Counted from the first letter of the stretch, positions 2,848-55,803 are shown. The stretch is 64,000 nucleotides of DNA from an uncultured SAR86 cluster bacterium (GCA_902586925.1 CACIJE010000001.1:270104-334103), one strand, 5' to 3'. Made by a program: numbers and translations. Notes: generated from the sequence alone by a model not told the origin.

Positions 2848-3479
2848 GTATTTTAAACAACATAATTAATGAATTTGATATTGCATTAAAAACTTTATCA
2901 GATAAAAAAGCTGGAACAGATAGAGAGTATCCTCCAACTCCAGTAGATAAAAATACGAGTAAGCTTTCTAAAAAGGAAAAAGATTTATCTATTCAAATGA
3001 TGAGAGTAAATCATGCTGGAGAAGTTGCTGCTCAAGCACTATACAGGGGACAAGCCTTTGTATGCAAAGATAAGAAAATAAAAGAACATTTAATTCATGC
3101 TGGTGATGAAGAGACTGACCATTTGGTATGGTGTAAAAAAAGACTCAATGAACTTGGTGGTAATAGCTCAATATTAAATCCAATATGGTATGCCAGTTCT
3201 TTTACAATTGGTGCTATTTTTGGTGCTATGGGAGAAAAGACTAGTCTTGGATTTGTTGAAGAAACAGAGAAACAAGTGGTAATACATTTACAAAAACACT
3301 TAGACAAAATATCTAAAAAGGACAAGGAAACCATTGAGATTCTTAAAACCATGCAAGCTGATGAAGATCTTCATGCTGGTCAGGCGAATGAATCTGGCGC
3401 AGAAGAGCTTGAATCACCTACCAAAAAAATTATGGAATTTACAGCGAAGGTAATGACTTCAACTAGTAAATACATATGA
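2844..3479 (+). CDS. coq7: Demethoxyubiquinone hydroxylase (di-iron, Coq7/Clk-1 family)
   Basis: MRVNHAGEVAAQALYRGQA, EETDHLVWC, LNPIWY, EETEKQVVIHL and DEDLHA di-iron ligand pattern. Confidence 0.93.
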   Translation: MSILNNIINEFDIALKTLSDKKAGTDREYPPTPVDKNTSKLSKKEKDLSIQMMRVNHAGEVAAQALYRGQAFVCKDKKIKEHLIHAGDEETDHLVWCKKRLNELGGNSSILNPIWYASSFTIGAIFGAMGEKTSLGFVEETEKQVVIHLQKHLDKISKKDKETIEILKTMQADEDLHAGQANESGAEELESPTKKIMEFTAKVMTSTSKYI

Positions 3480-3958
3480 TGCGAATTTTTCTTTTATCGT
3501 TCTTTTTAAGTTTTAATTTAACTGCTGAAAACTCAATTGAGGCATTGGAGGAAACACTTTACAAGTTTTGGGAGGCAAGAAATAAACAAGATTTTGAAAT
3601 GATCTTTTTTTACGAGAGTAAAATCGGAGCAATAACTGGCTCTTCATCTGAAAATTACTTTTACGAGGATCCTCCTCCAGACTTGAAATCTGTTGTTGAT
3701 TATTATTCATTGGTTGAATCAGACGTGAAGCCCTCAAATGTAAAAATTATCCAACTATCTGAGAAGGTATATTTAACTCTGTATTATCTTACAGGAAGCT
3801 ATAAATATTCTAACGGCAAAGTAAATAATGAATATAAAACTAGGGCTTCAAATATTTGGTTTTACGAAGATGGTGGTTTTAAGTTGTATTACAAGAACTT
3901 TACAAATCTTAAAAAAGAACTTGAACCAACCGATATTATTGCCTATCCAATGGATTGA
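3476..3958 (+). CDS. Hypothetical exported protein, probable NTF2/SnoaL-like fold
   Basis: Signal-peptide-like N-terminus (MMRIFLLSFFLSFNLTA); N-terminal helix followed by beta-rich C-terminus (RASNIWFYEDGGFKL) typical of NTF2-like proteins; ATGA overlap with coq7. Confidence 0.55.
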   Translation: MMRIFLLSFFLSFNLTAENSIEALEETLYKFWEARNKQDFEMIFFYESKIGAITGSSSENYFYEDPPPDLKSVVDYYSLVESDVKPSNVKIIQLSEKVYLTLYYLTGSYKYSNGKVNNEYKTRASNIWFYEDGGFKLYYKNFTNLKKELEPTDIIAYPMD

Positions 3959-36589: not shown

Positions 36590-37285
36590 CTAGTTATATA
36601 TGTCAAAAACAAAACCCAATTTCTTTAATTTTTGGTTCGAAATATCTCCATAAGACTCTGAATCCTCTGAACAATTAAATATTTCATGAGAGTTAAATTT
36701 ATTATCATTTTCAATAAAAAATTTTATAATCTTTGCTGCATTATCTCTATGCAAATAGTTGCTAGATTTTGGCTTAGATTTATATAAGCCAGATAATCTT
36801 AAAATTATTAATCTTTCAGCATATCTTTTAATTTGGTTATTTTCGTATTCAGTAATTATTTGTCCTTTGAATTCAAGAGAGCTGAGCTTAGAATCTTCTT
36901 CTTTTAACTTAGGTGACTCAATGTGAGAGTTACGATCTTTTATTTTGCCATACACACTTGTTGAAGAAATAGTGATAAATTTTTTATAAGATATATCTTC
37001 TGAAAGTTCTAAAAAGTTAAAAAGATTTTCAGATGAATTAAGGAATCCATTTTGATACCCCAATAAATCATTATTACTTGGTTTGGGTATAAAAATAATG
37101 CTTTCGAAATTTTTACATTCAAGTTTTATTGGTTTTTTTGTTAGCCAATCCCATTCAATAAAATTTTCTAATTCTTTCTTTTTTCTTCTTGAGATTCCAT
37201 ATATTTCGTAACTGTCTTTACATAATATTGAGTTAAGTCTTTTCGCAATATCACCATATCCAATAATTAAAATATTTTTTTTCAT
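36590..37285 (-). CDS. NAD(P)-binding Rossmann protein (YeeZ-like atypical SDR)
   Basis: ILIIGYGDIA, ISSTSVYG, ILRLSGLY, ISNQKLKKLGF. Confidence 0.7.
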   Translation of the reverse strand: MKKNILIIGYGDIAKRLNSILCKDSYEIYGISRRKKKELENFIEWDWLTKKPIKLECKNFESIIFIPKPSNNDLLGYQNGFLNSSENLFNFLELSEDISYKKFITISSTSVYGKIKDRNSHIESPKLKEEDSKLSSLEFKGQIITEYENNQIKRYAERLIILRLSGLYKSKPKSSNYLHRDNAAKIIKFFIENDNKFNSHEIFNCSEDSESYGDISNQKLKKLGFVFDIYN

Positions 37286-37296
37286 TTAAGTTAAGT

Positions 37297-37328
37297 AAAA
37301 AAAAATCCAGGACAATAACCCTGGATTT
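37297..37328 (-). terminator. Rho-independent terminator after hppA
   Basis: Perfect stem AAATCCAGG/CCTGGATTT with an 8-nt loop, followed on the minus strand by a T run. Confidence 0.8.
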
Positions 37329-37343
37329 CCAAATTAAATGTAT

Positions 37344-39326
37344 TTAAATGCTTAATAATGGTGCTATAACAAGGCTTACTATAGCCATAACATTAATTAA
37401 GATATTCATAGATGGTCCTGAAGTATCTTTAAAAGGATCTCCAACGGTATCTCCAACCACAGCGGCAGCATGAGTATCTGAACCCTTACCACCTAAATTG
37501 CCTTTCTCAACATATTTTTTTGCATTATCCCAAGCACCACCAGCGTTTGCCATCATTAGTGCTAATGAAACACAACCAAGTAGTCCACCAGCAAGCATTC
37601 CACCTAATGCTTGTGCACCAAGCCCAAACCCAACAATAGCAGGCATTGATACCGCTATTACTCCTGGTAACATCATCTTTTTAAGGGCTGCTGTTGTGGC
37701 TATTTCAACACATTTTTCAGAATCAGGTTCTGCTACACCCTCCATTAAACCGTCTATCTCTTTAAACTGTCTTCTTATTTCGTTAATCATTTCAAAAGCT
37801 GCGTCTCCAACTGCTGTCATTGTTATTGAAGAAACTAAGAAAGGTATACAAACGCCGATAAACATTCCAACCAAAACAATTGGTTCAGTAAGTGCTAATG
37901 AAAATTCAGGATTTGCATCAGCTACAACAGCTGAAAAAGCTGAAATTATTGCAAGAGCAGCTAAAGCTGCGGCGCCAATTGCAAAACCTTTACCAATCGC
38001 AGCAGTTGTATTTCCTAATTCATCAAGAGAATCAGTAATTTCTCTAACTTCTTCTCCCATACCTGACATTTCAGCAATGCCACCAGCATTATCTGCAACT
38101 GGTCCATATGCATCTATTGCCATTGTTATTCCAACAGTTGCTAGCATACCAACAGCCGCAATTCCAACACCATAAATACCCGATAATTGTGTTGAGGCAA
38201 GAATAATTCCAGCTAAAATTACAATTGGTATTACAACTGATTGCATACCAACTGATAATCCTGAAATCATGACTGTTGCTGATCCAGTTTCTCCTGATTC
38301 AGCTATTTTTTTTACTGGGCTACCGCCTGTATAGTATTCTGTAATAAGTCCAATTAAGACACCGCCTACTGCACCGCATATAACACACCACCAAACATTC
38401 ATTCCAACTCCATCTAAAGAATCAATTATGAAGTATGCCATTGCTACAAATATCACTGGCGCTAGAAAAGTTCCAGATCTCAATGCACTTGCAGGTGCTT
38501 TTGCTGACTGAAGCTTAACTATGAATATTCCAATTATTGACGCTATTAAACCAGTTGAAGCTAGAGCAAGAGGTAGCATCATCATATCTTTGTTTCCTAA
38601 TGTATAAGCTATAGCTATTGAGGCAATCATAGAACCACAATATGACTCAAATATATCTGAACCCATGCCGGCAACATCACCAACATTATCACCAACATTG
38701 TCTGCTATAACACCAGGATTTCTTGGATCATCTTCAGGAATGCCAGCTTCAATTTTACCAACAAGATCGGCTCCAACATCTGCACTTTTTGTAAAAATTC
38801 CTCCACCTACTCTAGAAAAAAGAGCGACCACTGATGCACCCATAGCAAAACCTTCAAGCTTATGAGGATCAATTTCAGCTGGTATATAAAAATAATATAA
38901 GCCTCCTAAACCTATCAAACCTAATGATGCTACACAAAGACCCATAATCGATCCTCCATAAAAAGATACCGATAAAGCTGCTGCTGGACCATCTTTTTGA
39001 GCTGCTGTTGCTGTTCTTACATTTGCTTTAGTTGCTGCATACATTCCTATAAAACCTGCAATTGATGAACATAAAGCACCGACAACCACTGCAATTGCAG
39101 TGAAAGGCCCTAATGCAAACCAAGCCAAACCAACTATCGCAGTCATAAAAATAAACAAATATTTGTACTCTGTTTTCATAAAGGTCAATGCTCCAGTATG
39201 AATCTGGTCACCAATTTTTTTTACTTTATCTTCACCATCAGGGTATTTCATAACAAGCATATAAACTACATATGCTACAGCCATACCCAAAAGACCTAAA
39301 GTAGGTGAAATTATTAAACTATCCAT
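37344..39326 (-). CDS. hppA: Membrane pyrophosphatase, K+-dependent, probably Na+-translocating
   Basis: [66 protein letters not shown] (K+-dependent signature), [19 protein letters not shown]. Confidence 0.96.
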
Positions 39327-39392: not shown

Positions 39393-40649
39393 TTATTTAT
39401 TAAATACTTCTTTATCCAAAAGATTTTCAGAATTTGCAACAATACAGGCAACTGCTGAATCCCCAGTAACATTAACTGAAGTTCTAATCATGTCTAAAAT
39501 TCTGTCCACAGCTAAAATCAAACCAATAGCATCTAAAGGAAGCCCTAATGAACTTAAAATTAATGCTAAAGTAATTGTTCCTGCAGACGGAACTGCAGCT
39601 GCACCAATAGAAGCAACCATTGCGAGCATTACAATTTGCAAATATTCGACCATAGACAAATCCACTCCCGCTGTACTTGCAATAAACATCGTTGCCAATC
39701 CCTGCATAATGGCAGTTCCATCCATATTGATGGTTGCTCCAACTGGAATCACAAAAGAGGATACATCTTTTTTTACTCCGAGATCATCAGTAACTGTTTT
39801 TAATGTGACCGGAATAGTTGCAGCACTTGATGAGGTTGAAAATGCGAATAAAGCAACATTTCTCATTTTTTTAAAAAATATAATTGGGTTCAGGTTTGCA
39901 AATATTTTTAAAATTATTGAATAAGTAAAAATAAGATGAAAAAACAAAACAAACATTAATATAAGAACATATTGAATTAAATCTCCGAAAATATTTAAAC
40001 CTTGAGCCATCACATAACTTCCCATTAAACAAAAAACTCCAATAGGTGCGAAACTCATAATAATTAAGACTATTTTCATAAAAACGATATTTAGTCTTTC
40101 AAAATTTTTAGAAAGTTTATCTGTCAGATCATCAGTTAGATTAAGCGCAATACCAAATAATATACTTATAAATACTATGCCAAGCATATTATTTTCAACA
40201 AAAGCACCGAAAATATTACTCGGAAAAATTTTTAATACAGTATCATAAAGGCTAGCCTCTCCTGAAGGTGCTATAAAAGACCCAACCTCTCCCTCATAGC
40301 CAGAGATATTAAAAAGCCATCCAAAAAATATAGCAATTATTACAGCAAATGCAGTTGTCATTAAATAAAGTGCGACTGTTTTAGATGCTATTGAACCTAG
40401 CTTAACCATATTTGATAATGAAGAAATACCAGAAACCAAAGAAAAGAAAACAAGAGGAACAACAATCAATAAAAGTAGATTTTTAAATATCTGTCCGCCT
40501 AAGTTAAAAATATATTTTTCAATGACTTGAATAAATGATATAGAAAATGAATTTTCAAAATAAAAAAATACAGAAGCTAACAAAACACCAAAAAACATCC
40601 CTAACAAAACATTTCTAGTAAGATTCTTTGGTGGGTCTAATGGACTCAT
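39393..40649 (-). CDS. Dicarboxylate/amino acid:cation symporter (DAACS, GltP/DctA family)
   Basis: AFSTSSSAATIP, GATINMDGTA, GAAAVPSAG, AVDRILDMIRTSVNVTGD. Confidence 0.93.
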   Translation of the reverse strand: MSPLDPPKNLTRNVLLGMFFGVLLASVFFYFENSFSISFIQVIEKYIFNLGGQIFKNLLLLIVVPLVFFSLVSGISSLSNMVKLGSIASKTVALYLMTTAFAVIIAIFFGWLFNISGYEGEVGSFIAPSGEASLYDTVLKIFPSNIFGAFVENNMLGIVFISILFGIALNLTDDLTDKLSKNFERLNIVFMKIVLIIMSFAPIGVFCLMGSYVMAQGLNIFGDLIQYVLILMFVLFFHLIFTYSIILKIFANLNPIIFFKKMRNVALFAFSTSSSAATIPVTLKTVTDDLGVKKDVSSFVIPVGATINMDGTAIMQGLATMFIASTAGVDLSMVEYLQIVMLAMVASIGAAAVPSAGTITLALILSSLGLPLDAIGLILAVDRILDMIRTSVNVTGDSAVACIVANSENLLDKEVFNK

Positions 40650-44504: not shown

Positions 44505-45473
44505 ATGAAAACATACGAATATATATGGCTAGATGGATATCAGCCTGAGCCAATGATGAGAAGTAAAGTTAAAGCTACTGATGATGAAACTCCTCCAGAC
44601 TGGTCTTTTGATGGTTCTTCAACACAACAAGCTGAAGGTGGAAGTTCTGATTGTTTACTTATACCAGTTCAAACATATTCAAATCCAAATGGTCATGATC
44701 TTGTGATGACTCAAGTTCAGTCAGCTGATCATACTACTCATCCATCTAATTTCAGAGCTGCAGCTGCTGAGGTTGTTTCTGATGAGTGGTGGTTTGGTTT
44801 TGAACAAGAGTTCTTTTTTACTGATCCTCAAACAGGTGAACCATTAGGATGGGAAGATGGTGAACCAAGAGAACAAGGTGAATACTACTGTGGAGTTGGT
44901 GCAAGTAACGTAGTTGGCAGAGAAATTTCTGATGCACATCTTCAAGCATGTTTAGATCTCGGTATTACGCTCACAGGTACTAATGCAGAGGTCGCATTAG
45001 GTCAGTGGGAGTACCAATGTTTTGGAAAGGGGATCAAGGCCGCTGATGACCTTTGGGTGAGTCGTTATTTACTTTACAAAATTGCAGAAGAATTTGGTGT
45101 TGGTGTGAACATTCATCCAAAACCAAAAACTGGTGATTGGAACGGCTCAGGCATGCATACAAACTTTTCAAATGAGGCAATGAGGACAGCAGGTTCTGAA
45201 GAATTATTTAGTTCTATGTGTGACAAACTTGGTGAAGTTCATGATGCTGGAATAGCTGCATATGGCTCTGATAATGACATGAGATTAACTGGTTTACATG
45301 AAACACAAAAAATAACAGAATTCTCATATGGCGTCAGCGACAGAGGCGCAAGCATAAGAATACCTGTTTATACAGTTGAACATGACTGGAACGGCTATTT
45401 AGAAGATAGAAGGCCTGCATCAAATGCAGATCCATATAAGATTTTAGCTCATATCGTAGGAACGCTAACTTAA
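44505..45473 (+). CDS. glnII: Glutamine synthetase type II
   Basis: 322 aa; EYIWLDG, WSFDGSST, WFGFEQE, QGEYYCGVGA, GTNAEVALGQWEYQ, GDWNGSGMHTNFS, RLTGLHET, DRGASIRIP, EDRRPASNADPY; SD AGGAG. Confidence 0.92.
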   Translation: MKTYEYIWLDGYQPEPMMRSKVKATDDETPPDWSFDGSSTQQAEGGSSDCLLIPVQTYSNPNGHDLVMTQVQSADHTTHPSNFRAAAAEVVSDEWWFGFEQEFFFTDPQTGEPLGWEDGEPREQGEYYCGVGASNVVGREISDAHLQACLDLGITLTGTNAEVALGQWEYQCFGKGIKAADDLWVSRYLLYKIAEEFGVGVNIHPKPKTGDWNGSGMHTNFSNEAMRTAGSEELFSSMCDKLGEVHDAGIAAYGSDNDMRLTGLHETQKITEFSYGVSDRGASIRIPVYTVEHDWNGYLEDRRPASNADPYKILAHIVGTLT

Positions 45474-45523: not shown

Positions 45524-46600
45524 ATGGAAATTGCCAAAGCAGAGTTATCTTTCTTAAACCAGCTTACCTCTGAAATTATCATTCTTGATGAAAATCTCAA
45601 AATAGTGTGGTTGAATTATTCTGCATTAAATAAAGGTTGGATCATTGATAATAAAAAAAGTTTGATAACTGATCAGCTATCTGAAGTTACAAACGCTTCT
45701 TTAGTTGGTCTATTTAAAAATGCAATAAGAAAAAATCTCTCACAAACCAAGAGAGATTTTGAACTAATTAATTCTAAACTTGAAAAAAGAGAGATCGATG
45801 TAACAGTGAGGTGGAGTAATTCATACGAATGTCTAATTGTTGAAATTTTGTGTGTTGACAATCTCAATAAAATGGTTGATTCGTCAAAAAGTTTTTCAAT
45901 ACAAAAGATAGCAGCAAATTTAGCAAGAACCCTAGCTCATGAAGTTAAGAACCCCCTGTCTGGTATTAAAGGAAGTGCTCAAATTCTTAGAAAAAAGTTA
46001 AAAGATGATTTTTCTTCAAAATTTCTCAAAATAATTATTGATGAAACTGATAGATTAAATAGTATTGTTACAAAAATTCTTACTCCACCTTCAAAACCTA
46101 ATCTTGCGCCTTTTAATATTCATTCTGCTCTTGAAAAAGTTTATGCATTAGCTGATGCAGATAAAAATGAAAAAATTAAACTTATAAGAGACTACGATCC
46201 TAGCATCCCTGAAATAAATGGTGATGAGAACTTATTTGTTCAAGCAATTCTTAATATTGTAAAAAATGCACAGCAGGCAATTGAAAATACAAAAGATCCA
46301 TCAATTACTATTAAATCAAGAATCCAATTTGGTAAACCTATAAATGGGACAACATATCCAACAATATGCTCTATAGAAATTAAAGATAATGGTCCTGGCA
46401 TACCTAATGAACTTCATGATCAGGTTTTTTTTCCAATGGTCTCTGTGAAAGAGAACGGATCTGGATTAGGCCTAACTATTGCTCAGGATATTATAAGGAT
46501 TCATGGTGGAGGAATAGTGTTTTCATCTGATCCAGGAAATACAGTTTTTTCAATTCAAATTCCTATTAAAGCAGATAATAAGGAGTCTCAAATTGCATAG
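45524..46600 (+). CDS. glnL: Nitrogen regulation sensor histidine kinase NtrB
   Basis: PAS-like N-terminus, LAHEVKNPLSGIKGSAQIL, DYDPSIP, NIVKNA, DNGPGIP, GSGLGL. Confidence 0.95.
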   Translation: MEIAKAELSFLNQLTSEIIILDENLKIVWLNYSALNKGWIIDNKKSLITDQLSEVTNASLVGLFKNAIRKNLSQTKRDFELINSKLEKREIDVTVRWSNSYECLIVEILCVDNLNKMVDSSKSFSIQKIAANLARTLAHEVKNPLSGIKGSAQILRKKLKDDFSSKFLKIIIDETDRLNSIVTKILTPPSKPNLAPFNIHSALEKVYALADADKNEKIKLIRDYDPSIPEINGDENLFVQAILNIVKNAQQAIENTKDPSITIKSRIQFGKPINGTTYPTICSIEIKDNGPGIPNELHDQVFFPMVSVKENGSGLGLTIAQDIIRIHGGGIVFSSDPGNTVFSIQIPIKADNKESQIA

Positions 46601-47969
46601 TGTATGGATTGCAGATGATGACCAAGCAATTAGACTTGTCCTTGAGGAGAGTCTCTCAAGTTCAGGGTTTCAAACAGAAAGCTTTTCAAACGGCGAAGAC
46701 TTAATAAAAAAACTTGAGACTAATCAGCCAGACTTAATAATTACCGATGTACAAATGCCAGGAATGCTAGGTTTTGATCTAATGAAACATATAAATAATA
46801 ATTTTGAGAACATCCCAGTTATTATTATGACCGCTTTTGCTGATATGCAAACAGCTGTCGAGTCATTTGGTGGTGGTGCATTTGAATATTTACCCAAGCC
46901 ATTTGATCTAGAGGAAGCAACAGAAATTGTTGTAAGAGCTTTGGAGGATAAACCAAAAACTAAAGGTCTAAAAAAAGATACAAAGCTTGATATAGTAGGT
47001 GAATCACAAGCAATGCAGAATGTTTATAGAGCTATTGGCAAGCTATCAAGTACCATCGCAACTGTATTAATTCAAGGAGAATCTGGAACTGGTAAGGAAT
47101 TAATAGCAAAATCACTTCACAAAAATAGTCCTAGAAATGATATGCCATTTATAGCACTTAATATGGCTGATATTCCAAAAGAACTTGTCGAGTCTGAGCT
47201 TTTTGGACACGAGAAAGGTTCTTTTACTGGAGCTGTAGAAAAAAGAATTGGCAGATTTGAGCAAGCAAATGGCGGGACTTTATTTTTAGATGAAATTGGA
47301 GATATGCCTTTAGACTCTCAAACACGTCTTCTAAGAGTGCTATCAAATAAAGAATTTTACAGAGTTGGTGGAGATAAACCTATAAAAGTGGATGTTAGAA
47401 TTGTTGCAGCTACTCACCAAAATCTTAATAATCTAGTATCACAAAATAAATTTAGAGAAGATCTTTTTTACAGGTTGAATGTGATTAAAATTGAAGTTCC
47501 TCCTCTTAGAAATAGAAAAGATGACATTAAAGAACTTTCTAGGTTCTTTCTTAAAAATTACTCAGATTCACTTGATGAAGATCTTAGGGTGATTTCAGAT
47601 GAAGCAATGAATTTACTTGAAAAGTTTGATTGGCCAGGAAATGTTAGACAACTTGAAAATGTATGCTATTGGTTAACGCTAATGTCGCCATCTCAAAATA
47701 TAAAATCTCAAGATTTACCAACTGAAGTTAAAGAATTTGAAGTTACTGATATCCCATCATCCTCTTGGGAAGAAGGAATGCAAAATTGGCTTAAAAACGT
47801 TTCAATGAATATCGATTCTGGTCTTTCTGAGATAGCCATAACAAAAATTGAAAAAATGCTCATTAAAACTGCTCTTGAAAGATCAAATGGTAAAAAAAAT
47901 GATGCAGCTCAGATCTTGGGTTGGGGTAGAAATACTCTTACAAAAAAAATGAAAGACCATGGGATTTAA
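46593..47969 (+). CDS. glnG: Nitrogen regulation response regulator NtrC
   Basis: Receiver (ITDVQMPG), AAA+ ([42 protein letters not shown]), Fis-type HTH (LGWGRNTL); TTG start with AAGGAG SD. Confidence 0.96.
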
Positions 47970-54173: not shown

Positions 54174-54663
54174 CATTACATTTATTGGAATGGCTGGATG
54201 TGGAAAATCGACTATAGGTAAAGCTATTTCTATGAAGATGGGCGTCAGTTTTATAGATACTGATCTATTAATTGAAAAACAATATAAAGCATCATTAGAA
54301 GAAATTAAAAATAAATTTGATTACAAGTTTGTTAGAGCTGCTGAAGAAAAAGTGATATTAAATCTAAATTCATCTAACAAAATAATTTCAACCGGAGGAA
54401 GTGCAGTCTATTCATCTCTATCTATGGAGCATCTTCAAAGATTTTCCTCAATAATATTTATTGATACTCCACTTAATATAATAATAGAGAGGATTGATAT
54501 AGGACAGGAAAGAGGACTTGCGGTACCTCCAGGTATTTCTGTTCCTGAAGTTTATAGAGAAAGAGAACCTATTTATAAAAAATATTCTAAATTTACTTTA
54601 GACGGATCCAAAACTGTTGATGAACTTGTCGATGAAGCAGAAAAAATTTATTTAAATGAATAA
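54166..54663 (+). CDS. Shikimate-kinase-fold kinase (shikimate kinase or homoserine kinase)
   Basis: IGMAGCGKSTIG P-loop, IDTDLLIE, STGGSAVYS, RGLAVPPG, EREPIYKKYS. Confidence 0.8.
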   Translation: MNNITFIGMAGCGKSTIGKAISMKMGVSFIDTDLLIEKQYKASLEEIKNKFDYKFVRAAEEKVILNLNSSNKIISTGGSAVYSSLSMEHLQRFSSIIFIDTPLNIIIERIDIGQERGLAVPPGISVPEVYREREPIYKKYSKFTLDGSKTVDELVDEAEKIYLNE

Positions 54664-55327
54664 AACAATATTAATTGCTGGTGCCTCAGGATTAGTTGGG
54701 GGTAGACTTCTTACAAACCTTAAATCATCTGAAAATCATTTAGTCCTTTTGGGAAGAAATCAAATTGCGTCTGAAAAAAATATTAATCAGATAATTACTG
54801 ATTTTGATAATATTGAAAATTTAGAAAATAATCTGAACATCGATGAGGTGTATATTGCAATTGGTTATAAGTTAACATTATTTGAACTTCTTTATCTAAA
54901 AAGAAGTAAAAGAGAAGAATTTAGAAAAGTCGATTTCGAATACATTAGAAATATTGCTCAGTTTGCAAAAAGATGTGGGGCTAAATCAATTGGTCTGATA
55001 TCTGCTGTAGGAGCAAATAATAAGTCCTTTAATACATACCTTAATGTAAAAGGTCATATAGAAAATGAGGTTTCATCTATGGGATTTAATAAGGTTGTGA
55101 TTGGACAGCCAGGTCACTTGTTGGGATTAAGATCAAATGAAAAGATTCCTTTTAATGTAAAGGTATTTGAAGTTATAACAAATTTATTTGGATATCTCAT
55201 GTTCGGTCCGATTGAAAAATATAGAAATATCGATGCAAATAAAGTTGCCAAGGGAATGATCAATAAAATGAATGAATCGATAGATGGAACACATTATCTA
55301 AACTTTAGTAACTTTAAATACTTCTAA
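54656..55327 (+). CDS. NAD(P)H-binding oxidoreductase (YraR/TIP30-like)
   Basis: IAGASGLVG, FRKVDFEY, LISAVGAN, YLNVKGHIE, QPGHLLG. Confidence 0.82.
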   Translation: MNKTILIAGASGLVGGRLLTNLKSSENHLVLLGRNQIASEKNINQIITDFDNIENLENNLNIDEVYIAIGYKLTLFELLYLKRSKREEFRKVDFEYIRNIAQFAKRCGAKSIGLISAVGANNKSFNTYLNVKGHIENEVSSMGFNKVVIGQPGHLLGLRSNEKIPFNVKVFEVITNLFGYLMFGPIEKYRNIDANKVAKGMINKMNESIDGTHYLNFSNFKYF

Positions 55328-55431: not shown

Positions 55432-55803
55432 ATGAAAAAATATATATTTATATCTGGAATCTTTTTATCTTTGAATGTACTTGCAGATGATCATATGGCC
55501 ACAAAAAAAAATATGAAAGAAAAATTTATGGAAAATCCAAACTATATAATGAGTTTCAAGGATTGTAAGGAAACCAAAGATGGTATATTGGGTTTATTAG
55601 CATTAAATGAGTCAATATGGAATGAGATTGAAAAAGATCCAGAAAATGAAGAGAAATGGTTAGAAGTTTCTATCGTTGCTGATTTAGCAGCTAATTATTC
55701 AACAATTTATGATGTATTTTGTAAAGATATGATTAACCATAGAATGAAATTAAGAATGATGGCTGATAAAAAGAAGAAAAACAAAGACAAGAAAGATGAC
55801 TAA
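55432..55803 (+). CDS. Hypothetical exported protein
   Basis: Signal peptide MKKYIFISGIFLSLNVLA/DDH, two Cys, Lys-rich tail; no family recognised. Confidence 0.7.
   Translation: MKKYIFISGIFLSLNVLADDHMATKKNMKEKFMENPNYIMSFKDCKETKDGILGLLALNESIWNEIEKDPENEEKWLEVSIVADLAANYSTIYDVFCKDMINHRMKLRMMADKKKKNKDKKDD

What the first reader, a model, noticed from the sequence alone, without database searches (positions are those of the whole stretch)
37344..39326. Membrane pyrophosphatase with natural Lys-to-Asn change at the ion gate
Seen: GNTTAA (K+-dependent signature) and SDIFESY with Glu at the Na+-PPase position. The last helix reads [14 protein letters not shown] (Asn codon 37392-37394) where mPPases normally have ILIK. 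Established: that Lys (T. maritima K707, mung bean K742) is a core gate residue. As I recall, substituting it in Chlorobium limicola Na+-PPase abolished H+ but not Na+ transport. Inference: this may be a strictly Na+-specific PPi-driven pump defining an uncharacterised marine subfamily. It lies just downstream of a cation-coupled DAACS transporter.
Basis: partly seen in the sequence, partly recalled or inferred. Interest (0 to 1): 0.7.

Follow-up and report, generated by a model that had tools for sequence, protein, structure and literature searches.

The report
Membrane pyrophosphatase lacking the gate lysine
This SAR86 gene encodes an intact pyrophosphate-driven ion pump whose normally conserved channel-gate lysine is asparagine; the change is fixed in a large, mostly marine clade of these pumps, so it is a natural test of how they choose sodium or protons.

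Summary
ORF 37344-39326 (-) is a full-length membrane pyrophosphatase (mPPase; Pfam H_PPase 841 bits). It has GNTTAA (A12.46, the K+-dependent type) and Glu at 6.53. The Asn codon at 37392-37394 aligns exactly with mung-bean K742 (K16.50).

It is not a sequencing error. All 240 proteins returned by two similarity searches carry Asn there. Among 120 species genomes picked by a motif search that allowed either Asn codon, AAT and AAC are used about equally.

It is not specific to SAR86. At least 120 species genomes carry the NILIN motif. In a neighbour-joining tree these sequences form one clade with 82-90% bootstrap support and no Lys-bearing member inside it. The clade spans Gammaproteobacteria, Zetaproteobacteria, Verrucomicrobia and Planctomycetes.

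The Asn comes with other fixed gate and exit-channel changes: S6.49, C6.56, A12.56, A12.60, I12.64 and V16.51. Its nearest Lys-bearing sisters fall under the same NCBIfam model, NF001961.

The Na+ ligands D6.50, E6.53, S6.54 and N16.46 are all intact. A Na+ pump with weakened or absent H+ transport is therefore the best inference. I found no description of this clade in the searchable literature.

Verdict: a real new variant of a known pump family, moderately to highly interesting.

The parts
37344..39326 (-). hppA-type membrane pyrophosphatase gene, 660 aa, member of the Lys-less-gate (N16.50) clade
   Evidence: Pfam PF03030 covers 1-645/645 at 841 bits. NCBIfam NF001961 scores 1037 bits against a cutoff of 926. 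The AF2 model has pLDDT 87 and TM-score 0.95 to TmPPase.
37392..37394 (-). Asn645 codon (AAT) at position 16.50, where other mPPases have the gate Lys (Tm K707 / Vr K742)
   Evidence: Read directly from the sequence and aligned to Vr K742. It is invariant in the clade.
37389..37427 (-). TM16 motif [13 protein letters not shown] (residues 634-646), including M16.45, N16.46 (a Na+ ligand position), N16.50 and V16.51
   Evidence: M16.45 and V16.51 are clade-specific. The segment lies within predicted helix 617-659.
38637..38663 (-). TM6 gate motif GSDIFESYC (residues 222-230): S6.49, D6.50, I6.51, E6.53, S6.54, C6.56; position 6.57 is Gly
   Evidence: S6.49, I6.51 and C6.56 are clade-specific. 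D6.50, E6.53 and S6.54 are the Na+ ligands seen in TmPPase (PMC5150537).
37998..38015 (-). GNTTAA motif (residues 438-443): A12.46 with G12.49, the K+-dependent signature, followed by K12.50
   Evidence: The rule that Ala versus Lys at this position sets K+ dependence is from PMC9408878.
37947..37973 (-). TM12 segment below the gate, with clade-specific A12.56 (A452), A12.60 (A456) and I12.64 (I460). Lys-bearing relatives have S, T and L at these positions.
   Evidence: The covariation of K16.50 with S12.56 across 150 representatives is.
37301..37330 (-). Intrinsic-terminator-like hairpin (13-bp stem followed by a T run) just after the hppA stop codon
39327..39392 (-). 66-bp DAACS-hppA intergenic region. 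It has a weak promoter-like site (39391-39364) and an AAGGGG ribosome-binding site, and no terminator.
39393..40649 (-). DAACS (sodium:dicarboxylate symporter family) transporter gene directly upstream on the same strand. The adjacency is conserved across the SAR86 order.
   Evidence: Pfam PF00375 at 383 bits. Adjacent to hppA in 12 SAR86-order species genomes and one Zetaproteobacterium.

Best explanation
The gene encodes a catalytically intact, K+-stimulated membrane pyrophosphatase. It belongs to a distinct, widespread subfamily in which the gate lysine K16.50 is permanently replaced by asparagine and the surrounding gate and exit channel are remodelled (S6.49, I6.51, C6.56, A12.56, A12.60, I12.64, M16.45, V16.51).

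Shown here:
- the identity of the protein and the placement of the residue;
- the fixation of Asn and the single-clade structure;
- the co-substitutions;
- the intact Na+ ligand set (D224, E227, S228, N641).

Inferred:
- PPi hydrolysis drives electrogenic Na+ export.
- In Lys-bearing Na+-PPases the Lys amine occupies the D6.50/E6.53 site at rest, and in H+-pumpers it blocks the Na+ site. Here no Lys is present, so the acidic gate site would be neutralised by Na+ itself. N645 may act as an extra oxygen ligand or as a second step below the site.
- The residual H+-transport mode of ordinary Na+-PPases would then be weakened or lost.

In SAR86 the pump would recycle biosynthetic PPi into a sodium-motive force. 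It may be co-expressed with the adjacent DAACS symporter.
For: Identity and fold:
- Full-length H_PPase match with all catalytic motifs conserved.
- The AF2 model has TM-score 0.95 to T. maritima Na+-PPase.
- NCBIfam NF001961, named 'sodium-translocating pyrophosphatase', scores above its cutoff.

Na+-type residues:
- A12.46/G12.49, E6.53, S6.54, D6.50 and N16.46 are all present.
- All characterised Na+ pumpers are K+-dependent with Glu at 6.53 (PMC9408878; PMC5150537).

Role of the Lys in current models:
- Structural work says K16.50 leaves the site so that Na+ can bind in TmPPase. In H+-PPases it stays and occupies or destroys the Na+ site (PMC5150537; PMC10897367).
- Removing the Lys should therefore favour Na+.

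Fixation of Asn:
- 240 of 240 similarity-sampled homologues carry Asn.
- All 84 full-length genome copies found by a motif search that required Asn share the same gate-residue signature.
- Both Asn codons are used about equally across the 120 species genomes found by that motif search.
- The clade has 82-90% bootstrap support with the 16.50 column removed.

Co-evolved channel changes, and a general covariation of K16.50 with S12.56 across 150 representatives.

SAR86 transcribes a 'V-type pyrophosphatase' highly in situ (PMC4410273).

From memory only: a Lys681 substitution in C. limicola Na+-PPase abolished H+ transport but not Na+ transport (PMID 24158447).
Against: - No transport or hydrolysis data exist for any clade member that I could find.
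- The key mutant paper could not be read. As I recall it, the same substitution also lowered Na+ affinity.
- Glu at 6.53 does not by itself determine Na+ pumping, because K+-independent H+-PPases also have it (PMC9408878).
- Other Lys-less lineages exist with K12.46 and D or Q at 6.53. All characterised K+-independent enzymes pump H+, so the Lys may not be essential for H+ transport in every background.
- The SAR86 genome paper assumed these enzymes generate a proton-motive force (PMC3358033).
- I could not check whether characterised enzymes from marine Verrucomicrobia fall inside the clade.
Confidence: 0.5

Rival explanations
1. The enzyme still moves protons. It is either a Na+,H+ co-transporter or an H+ pump that contributes to the proton-motive force, as the SAR86 literature assumes. 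The co-evolved TM6 and TM12 changes would compensate for the missing Lys.
For: - Dupont 2012 describes SAR86 pyrophosphatases as pmf generators (PMC3358033).
- Glu at 6.53 is compatible with H+ pumping in K+-independent and dual-specificity enzymes.
- Independent Lys-less lineages with K12.46 exist. All characterised K+-independent enzymes are H+ pumps.
Against: - Current structural models need K16.50 to mask the Na+ site for H+ selectivity (PMC10897367).
- The full Na+ ligand set is retained.
- Li 2016 states that dual-pumping enzymes show no obvious channel differences. This implies the characterised ones keep the Lys.
Confidence: 0.2
2. The enzyme works mainly in reverse in vivo. The large inward Na+ gradient of seawater would drive PPi synthesis, or the enzyme would act as a freely reversible Na+/PPi buffer. 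The Lys-less gate would lower the barrier to back-transport.
For: - mPPase function is reversible, and PPi synthesis may be the main role in some organisms (PMC9408878).
- By record title, the clade is concentrated in marine and saline lineages.
Against: - No direct evidence.
- The adjacent DAACS symporter and the streamlined heterotroph lifestyle fit a gradient-generating role equally well.
- The direction of operation cannot be read from sequence.
Confidence: 0.1
3. Loss of the gate Lys uncouples the enzyme. It would be a membrane-anchored PPi hydrolase with little or no ion transport.
For: [quoted passage not shown]
Against: - The whole channel, including the hydrophobic-gate positions, is strongly conserved across phyla. 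Within-clade identity is 59-100% with a median of 71%.
- The substitutions are specific and fixed.
- A 16-helix membrane enzyme is a costly way to hydrolyse PPi in a streamlined genome.
Confidence: 0.07
4. The Asn is a sequencing or assembly error, or a strain-specific neutral polymorphism.
For: None found. The single Eggerthellaceae case (L032) keeps S12.56 and L16.51 and could be such a case in another lineage.
Against: 240 of 240 homologues carry Asn. At least 120 species genomes carry the motif. Both Asn codons are used about equally. Lys is one nucleotide away yet is never seen inside the clade.
Confidence: 0.01

Closest known systems
K+-dependent Na+-translocating mPPases (Thermotoga maritima TmPPase, PDB 4AV3/5LZQ; Chlorobium limicola Na+-PPase)
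   Same: Same 16-helix fold (TM-score 0.95). Same catalytic motifs. A12.46 marks K+ dependence. The Na+ ligands D6.50, E6.53, S6.54 and N/D16.46 are present.
   Different: K16.50 forms the ion triplet with D6.50 and E6.53 at rest and swings away for Na+ binding; here it is Asn. S12.56, T12.60, L12.64, A6.49, V6.56 and L16.51 are also replaced. Sequence identity to TmPPase is only about 39%.
NCBIfam NF001961 (PRK00733.3-6), 'sodium-translocating pyrophosphatase'
   Same: The query and diverse clade members score above the model's cutoff of 926 bits, at 931-1107 bits.
   Different: The model also takes in the nearest Lys-bearing sisters P0122 and P0123 (984 and 967 bits). They keep K16.50, S12.56 and T12.60. 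The model therefore does not separate the Lys-less clade. Its name is an annotation, not an assay.
Na+,H+-PPases (Bacteroides vulgatus type; Luoto 2013 PNAS, Nordbo 2016)
   Same: K+-dependent, Na+-requiring, Glu at 6.53 (PMC6882861 Table 1).
   Different: They are reported to show no obvious channel differences from other mPPases (PMC5150537), whereas this clade changes the gate itself. Their four signature residues could not be checked because those papers are not held in the library.
K+-dependent H+-PPases (Vigna radiata VrPPase, PDB 4A01)
   Same: Best sequence match in the PDB (E = 1.9e-155). Same fold and same K+ dependence.
   Different: VrPPase has E6.57 paired with K16.50. The query has G6.57, E6.53 and N16.50.
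Other natural Lys-less mPPases seen here (P0165 cluster; the D6.53/K12.46 group with C, A, T or V at 16.50; a Halobacteria MAG, L103)
   Same: They lack K16.50 and usually also have A12.56 and V16.51.
   Different: They are phylogenetically separate. Most are the K+-independent type with D or Q at 6.53. None is characterised as far as I could find.

Membership tests
Membrane-bound pyrophosphatase (Pfam PF03030 H_PPase) | Full-length match to the family HMM above the gathering score | tested here: met
   841.5 bits against a cutoff of 29.7, covering profile positions 1-645 of 645.
Membrane-bound pyrophosphatase (Pfam PF03030 H_PPase) | Conserved catalytic Asp/Lys/Asn motifs ([54 protein letters not shown]) | tested here: met
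   All are aligned and identical or conservative relative to VrPPase. They are invariant in alignment A1.
Membrane-bound pyrophosphatase (Pfam PF03030 H_PPase) | 16-transmembrane-helix fold | tested here: met
   The AF2 model has pLDDT 87.2 and pTM 0.88. TM-score is 0.95 to TmPPase, 0.93 to VrPPase and 0.92 to PaPPase.
K+-dependent mPPases | Ala (not Lys) at 12.46 in the GNTT[A/K]A motif, with Gly at 12.49 | tested here: met
   GNTTAAIGK at residues 438-446. The rule is from PMC9408878.
K+-dependent mPPases | Activation of hydrolysis by K+ | not testable with these tools
   Needs an enzyme assay.
Na+-translocating mPPases (Na+-PPase) | Semi-conserved Glu at 6.53 with D6.50, S6.54 and N/D16.46 forming the Na+ site | tested here: met
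   D224, E227, S228 and N641 are present, and position 6.57 is Gly.
Na+-translocating mPPases (Na+-PPase) | Gate Lys K16.50, which forms the ion triplet with D6.50 and E6.53 at rest | tested here: not met
   N645 aligns with Vr K742. Asn is invariant across the clade.
Na+-translocating mPPases (Na+-PPase) | Na+-dependent PPi hydrolysis and PPi-driven 22Na+ transport | not testable with these tools
   Needs inverted-vesicle or proteoliposome assays.
NCBIfam NF001961 (PRK00733.3-6) | Score above the curated cutoff of 926 bits | tested here: met
   1037.4 bits. Clade members score 931-1107 bits, and the Lys-bearing sisters P0122 and P0123 also pass.
Na+,H+-PPases | Four signature residues outside the channel (Luoto 2013 PNAS) and simultaneous Na+ and H+ transport | not tested
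   The papers that define the residues are not held in the library. No reference sequences were available.
K+-dependent H+-PPases (plant type) | Glu at 6.57 (or 5.43) paired with K16.50 | tested here: not met
   The query has G6.57, S5.43 and N16.50.

The most novel reading that the evidence does not exclude
The NILIN clade would be a mechanistically distinct fourth kind of K+-dependent mPPase. It would be an obligate Na+-only pump, or a readily reversible Na+/PPi machine, that works without the gate lysine. Every current model treats that lysine as the moving charge defining ion selectivity in all subclasses. The clade would also be a major, overlooked contributor to sodium energetics in abundant ocean bacteria such as SAR86, Halieaceae, Porticoccaceae, Methylophaga, Zetaproteobacteria and marine Opitutales.
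Probability: 0.35. Interest if true: 0.78.

Novelty: new variant of a known kind. Interest (0 to 1): 0.6.

Why it matters
Current structural models put K16.50 at the centre of both coupling and Na+/H+ selectivity. Li 2016 describes a 'peristaltic motion of K16.50'. [quoted passage not shown]

A large clade under purifying selection that lacks this residue and carries a defined set of co-substitutions is a ready-made natural experiment. It shows which residues to swap (N16.50K, A12.56S, A12.60T) to test those models.

The covariation of K16.50 with S12.56 also suggests an interaction that is not discussed in the papers I could read.

Ecologically, the gene is highly abundant in ocean metagenomes. 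A SAR86 pyrophosphatase is reported as highly transcribed. If it pumps Na+ rather than H+, the published energy-budget picture for SAR86, which assumes pmf generation, needs correcting.

Tried and rejected
1. Retrieving the primary mPPase papers failed. Luoto 2011 JBC, Luoto 2013 JBC and PNAS, and Baykov 2013 MMBR are not held. A search for Lys681/K681 found nothing relevant. The C. limicola result therefore rests on memory.

2. I tried to learn whether a characterised enzyme sits in the clade, for example Verrucomicrobiae bacterium DG1235 or Akkermansia (recalled from Luoto 2013 PNAS). The taxonomy look-up found no such name. A homologue search with an Opitutaceae member and a cluster look-up returned only MAG, Lentimonas and Opitutae names. 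This is unresolved.

3. I suspected that the degenerate paralogue P0142/P0287 shared a contig with a SAR86 hppA, because the contig lengths were equal. The contig holds only one mPPase gene, and tblastn finds no second copy in the window. Rejected.

4. I looked for Na+-cycle genes such as NQR or Na+ antiporters in the window. Only housekeeping genes were found.

5. The sequencing-error explanation is rejected.

6. The AF2 model confirms the fold and that residue 645 lies in the last helix. No coordinates are returned, so side-chain geometry at the gate could not be examined.

7. The neighbour-joining tree is crude, and the genome sequences were selected by the motif itself. I therefore relied on the similarity-sampled sets for the claim that no Lys occurs within the clade.

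Full report
**What is in the window.** ORF 37344..39326 on the minus strand encodes a 660-aa protein.
- It matches Pfam H_PPase end to end, at 841 bits over profile positions 1-645 of 645.
- It matches NCBIfam NF001961, 'sodium-translocating pyrophosphatase', at 1037 bits against a cutoff of 926.
- The C-terminus reads [36 protein letters not shown].
- An AlphaFold2 model built on 26 clade sequences is confident (mean pLDDT 87, pTM 0.88). It places residue 645 in the last helix, 617-659.
- The model superposes on T. maritima Na+-PPase with TM-score 0.95, and on the V. radiata and P. aerophilum H+-PPases with 0.92-0.93.
- A 13-bp-stem terminator follows the stop codon at 37330-37301.
- A DAACS/SDF transporter gene (39393-40649) lies 66 bp upstream on the same strand, with no terminator between the two genes.
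- The window has 31.8% GC and otherwise carries housekeeping genes: spoT, rpoZ, gmk, yicC, ubiCA, trp, pur, lptD-surA-pdxA and ntrBC.
- The closest homologues are named SAR86.

**Placement of the residue.** phmmer against PDB sequences aligns the query without gaps through TM16 to V. radiata H+-PPase. Query '...[18 protein letters not shown]' pairs with Vr '...dtsgpslnilik lmaves' ending at residue 748, so N645 sits on K742.
- Holmes 2019 tabulates K742 (Vr) = K707 (Tm) = position 16.50, at 94.5% conservation (PMC6882861).
- In the same alignment E227 falls on Vr G297 (6.53). Vr E301 (6.57) is Gly in the query.
- GNTTAAIGK gives A12.46, G12.49 and K12.50.
- The protein therefore has the K+-dependent signature and the complete Na+-site ligand set seen in TmPPase:IDP: D6.50, E6.53, S6.54 and N/D16.46 (PMC5150537). 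It lacks the Lys.
- No Lys or Arg appears elsewhere in TM5, 6, 12 or 16 beyond the universally conserved R5.50, K5.58 and K12.50.

**Not an error, and not specific to SAR86.**
- All 120 nearest database proteins (94-99% identity) have Asn at 16.50. The two that my first regular expression missed differ only at another residue.
All 120 matches lie in mPPase genes.
- The genomes include SAR86, Halieaceae, Porticoccaceae, Methylophaga, Cycloclasticus, Paraglaciecola, Pseudoalteromonas, Thiocapsa, Wenzhouxiangella, Arenicellales, sponge-associated Poriferihabitaceae, Zetaproteobacteria/Mariprofundus, Opitutales and Akkermansiaceae, Phycisphaerae and SAR116. Cultured strains include Teredinibacter waterburyi Bs02 and Seongchinamella marina IMCC8485.
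- AAT and AAC are used 62 and 58 times. The amino acid is therefore conserved across synonymous turnover, although Lys is a single transversion away.
- A second, unbiased sample gave the same answer. All 120 best homologues of an Opitutaceae member (73-99% identity) have Asn.

**One clade.** I aligned three sets: the 150 best representatives of 50%-identity clusters from the exhaustive HMMER search, the query with three SAR86 relatives, and the 84 near-full-length genome copies.
- A neighbour-joining tree puts 88 Asn-bearing sequences in a single clade. The only other members are two degenerate sequences, and no Lys-bearing sequence is nested inside.
- With the 16.50 column removed, the exact clade appears in 82 of 100 bootstrap replicates. 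A clade holding all core members and no K16.50 sequence appears in 90 of 100.
- Within-clade identity is at least 59%, with a median of 71%. The best identity of any member to any Lys-bearing protein is 61%.
- The nearest Lys-bearing sisters are P0122 and P0123. A cluster member of P0123 is annotated as from a Deltaproteobacteria MAG. Both also pass the NF001961 cutoff, so the K-to-N change happened inside that NCBIfam group.
- Separate occurrences of Asn at 16.50 are a Halobacteria MAG (L103), an Eggerthellaceae MAG (L032) and the P0165 cluster, which has K12.46, Q6.53 and D16.46.
- Caveats: the tree is distance-based, and the genome set was selected by the motif. The absence of Lys inside the clade therefore rests on the similarity-sampled sets.

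**Co-substitutions.** I compared 84 clade members with 71 Lys-bearing relatives that share Glu at 6.53 and Ala at 12.46. The positions below are at least 90% fixed in the clade and at most 10% present in the relatives:

| Position | Clade | Lys-bearing relatives |
|---|---|---|
| 6.49 | S | A |
| 6.51 | I | L |
| 6.56 | C | V |
| 12.56 | A | S (96%) |
| 12.60 | A | T |
| 12.64 | I | L |
| residue 585 | C | G |
| 16.45 | M | L |
| 16.50 | N | K |
| 16.51 | V | L |

- L12.64 is one of the positions whose mutation uncouples plant enzymes (PMC6882861).
- Across the 150 representatives, K16.50 goes with S12.56 in 111 of 127 sequences. Non-Lys residues at 16.50 go with A12.56 in 14 of 18, in several unrelated lineages.
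- I read this as evidence that the Ser hydroxyl and the Lys amine work as a pair. That is inference, because no coordinates were available.

**Mechanism.** In published structures K16.50 forms an ion triplet with D6.50 and E6.53 in resting TmPPase and moves away when substrate binds, so that Na+ can bind. In H+-PPases it stays and neutralises or destroys the Na+ site (PMC5150537; PMC5336470; PMC10897367).
- With Asn in place of Lys, nothing intrinsic competes with Na+ for the D224/E227/S228/N641 site.
- The most economical prediction is a Na+ pump whose gate is occupied by Na+ even at rest, with the low-Na+ H+-transport mode of ordinary Na+-PPases reduced or lost.
- The 'billiard' model, in which the hydrolysis proton expels gate-bound Na+ (PMC9408878), does not need the Lys.
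This matches my memory of the abstract of PMID 24158447, but the paper is not held. It remains unverified here. As I recall it, the substitution also lowered Na+ affinity.
- I give the Na+-pump reading about 0.5, and a strictly Na+-only pump less.
- The rivals are H+ or dual transport, reverse operation as a Na+-driven PPi synthase, and uncoupled hydrolysis. They are scored separately in the rival explanations.

**Context.** The DAACS-hppA pair is conserved in 12 SAR86-order species genomes, where DAACS identity ranges from 46% to 79%, and in one Zetaproteobacterium. It is not conserved elsewhere in the clade.
- Which cation the DAACS protein couples is unknown. Its best NCBIfam hit is GltP at 200 bits against a cutoff of 638.
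- Dupont 2012 treated the SAR86 'V-type pyrophosphatases' as proton-motive-force generators (PMC3358033).
- Dupont 2015 lists a V-type pyrophosphatase among highly expressed SAR86 genes (PMC4410273).

**Novelty.** The 94.5% conservation figure shows that non-Lys variants were implicitly known.
- None of the papers I could read discusses them.
- Searches for 'N16.50' or for Lys/Asn gate variants returned nothing relevant.
- Several key papers are not in the library, so prior description cannot be excluded.
- I classify the finding as a new variant of a known kind. The family, fold and chemistry are ordinary, but a core gate residue and its neighbours are systematically different in a large, ecologically prominent clade.

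Noticed in passing
Not in the window: proteins P0142 (667 aa) and P0172 (662 aa) from the representative search: These are mPPase-like proteins nested inside the Asn-16.50 clade, but their catalytic acidic motifs are destroyed (for example [14 protein letters not shown] becomes GAAVGGPFKATAAP, and D6.50 becomes E or C). They may be catalytically dead mPPase paralogues that keep the membrane scaffold.
   Followed up: partly
150 representative mPPases; window residues A452 (37971-37973) and N645 (37392-37394): K16.50 covaries with S12.56 across mPPases. K goes with S in 111 of 127 sequences, and non-K goes with A in 14 of 18, in several unrelated Lys-less lineages. This suggests a Lys-Ser partnership at the gate that is not mentioned in the papers I could read.
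   Followed up: partly
Proteins P0165 (13-member cluster), P0195, P0211, P0218, P0230, P0260; loci L103 and L032: Other natural Lys-less mPPase lineages exist. One is a K+-independent type with Q6.53, D16.46 and N16.50. Another is a K12.46/D6.53 group with C, A, T or V at 16.50. There are also a Halobacteria MAG and an Eggerthellaceae MAG with Asn at 16.50 outside the main clade.
   Followed up: partly
window 39393-40649 (-) with 37344-39326 (-): The DAACS transporter and hppA are adjacent on the same strand in 12 SAR86-order species genomes, even though DAACS identity falls to 46%. ubiC/ubiA lie upstream and yicC/gmk downstream. The pair may be one operon.
   Followed up: partly
window 44505-45473 (+): A short (322 aa) GlnII-type glutamine synthetase (NCBIfam NF041605, 358 bits, below the 500-bit cutoff) sits directly upstream of ntrB/ntrC-like genes (45524-47969). 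A type I glnA would be expected at that position.
   Followed up: no
window 36590-37285 (-): A 231-aa ORF between hppA and yicC has no Pfam or NCBIfam match. It is conserved at this position in several SAR86 genomes at 31-52% identity.
   Followed up: no
window 3476-3958 (+), 54656-55327 (+), 55432-55803 (+): Three ORFs of 160, 223 and 123 aa have no significant family match. The 223-aa ORF has only a weak N-terminal hit resembling a Rossmann-fold oxidoreductase.
   Followed up: no
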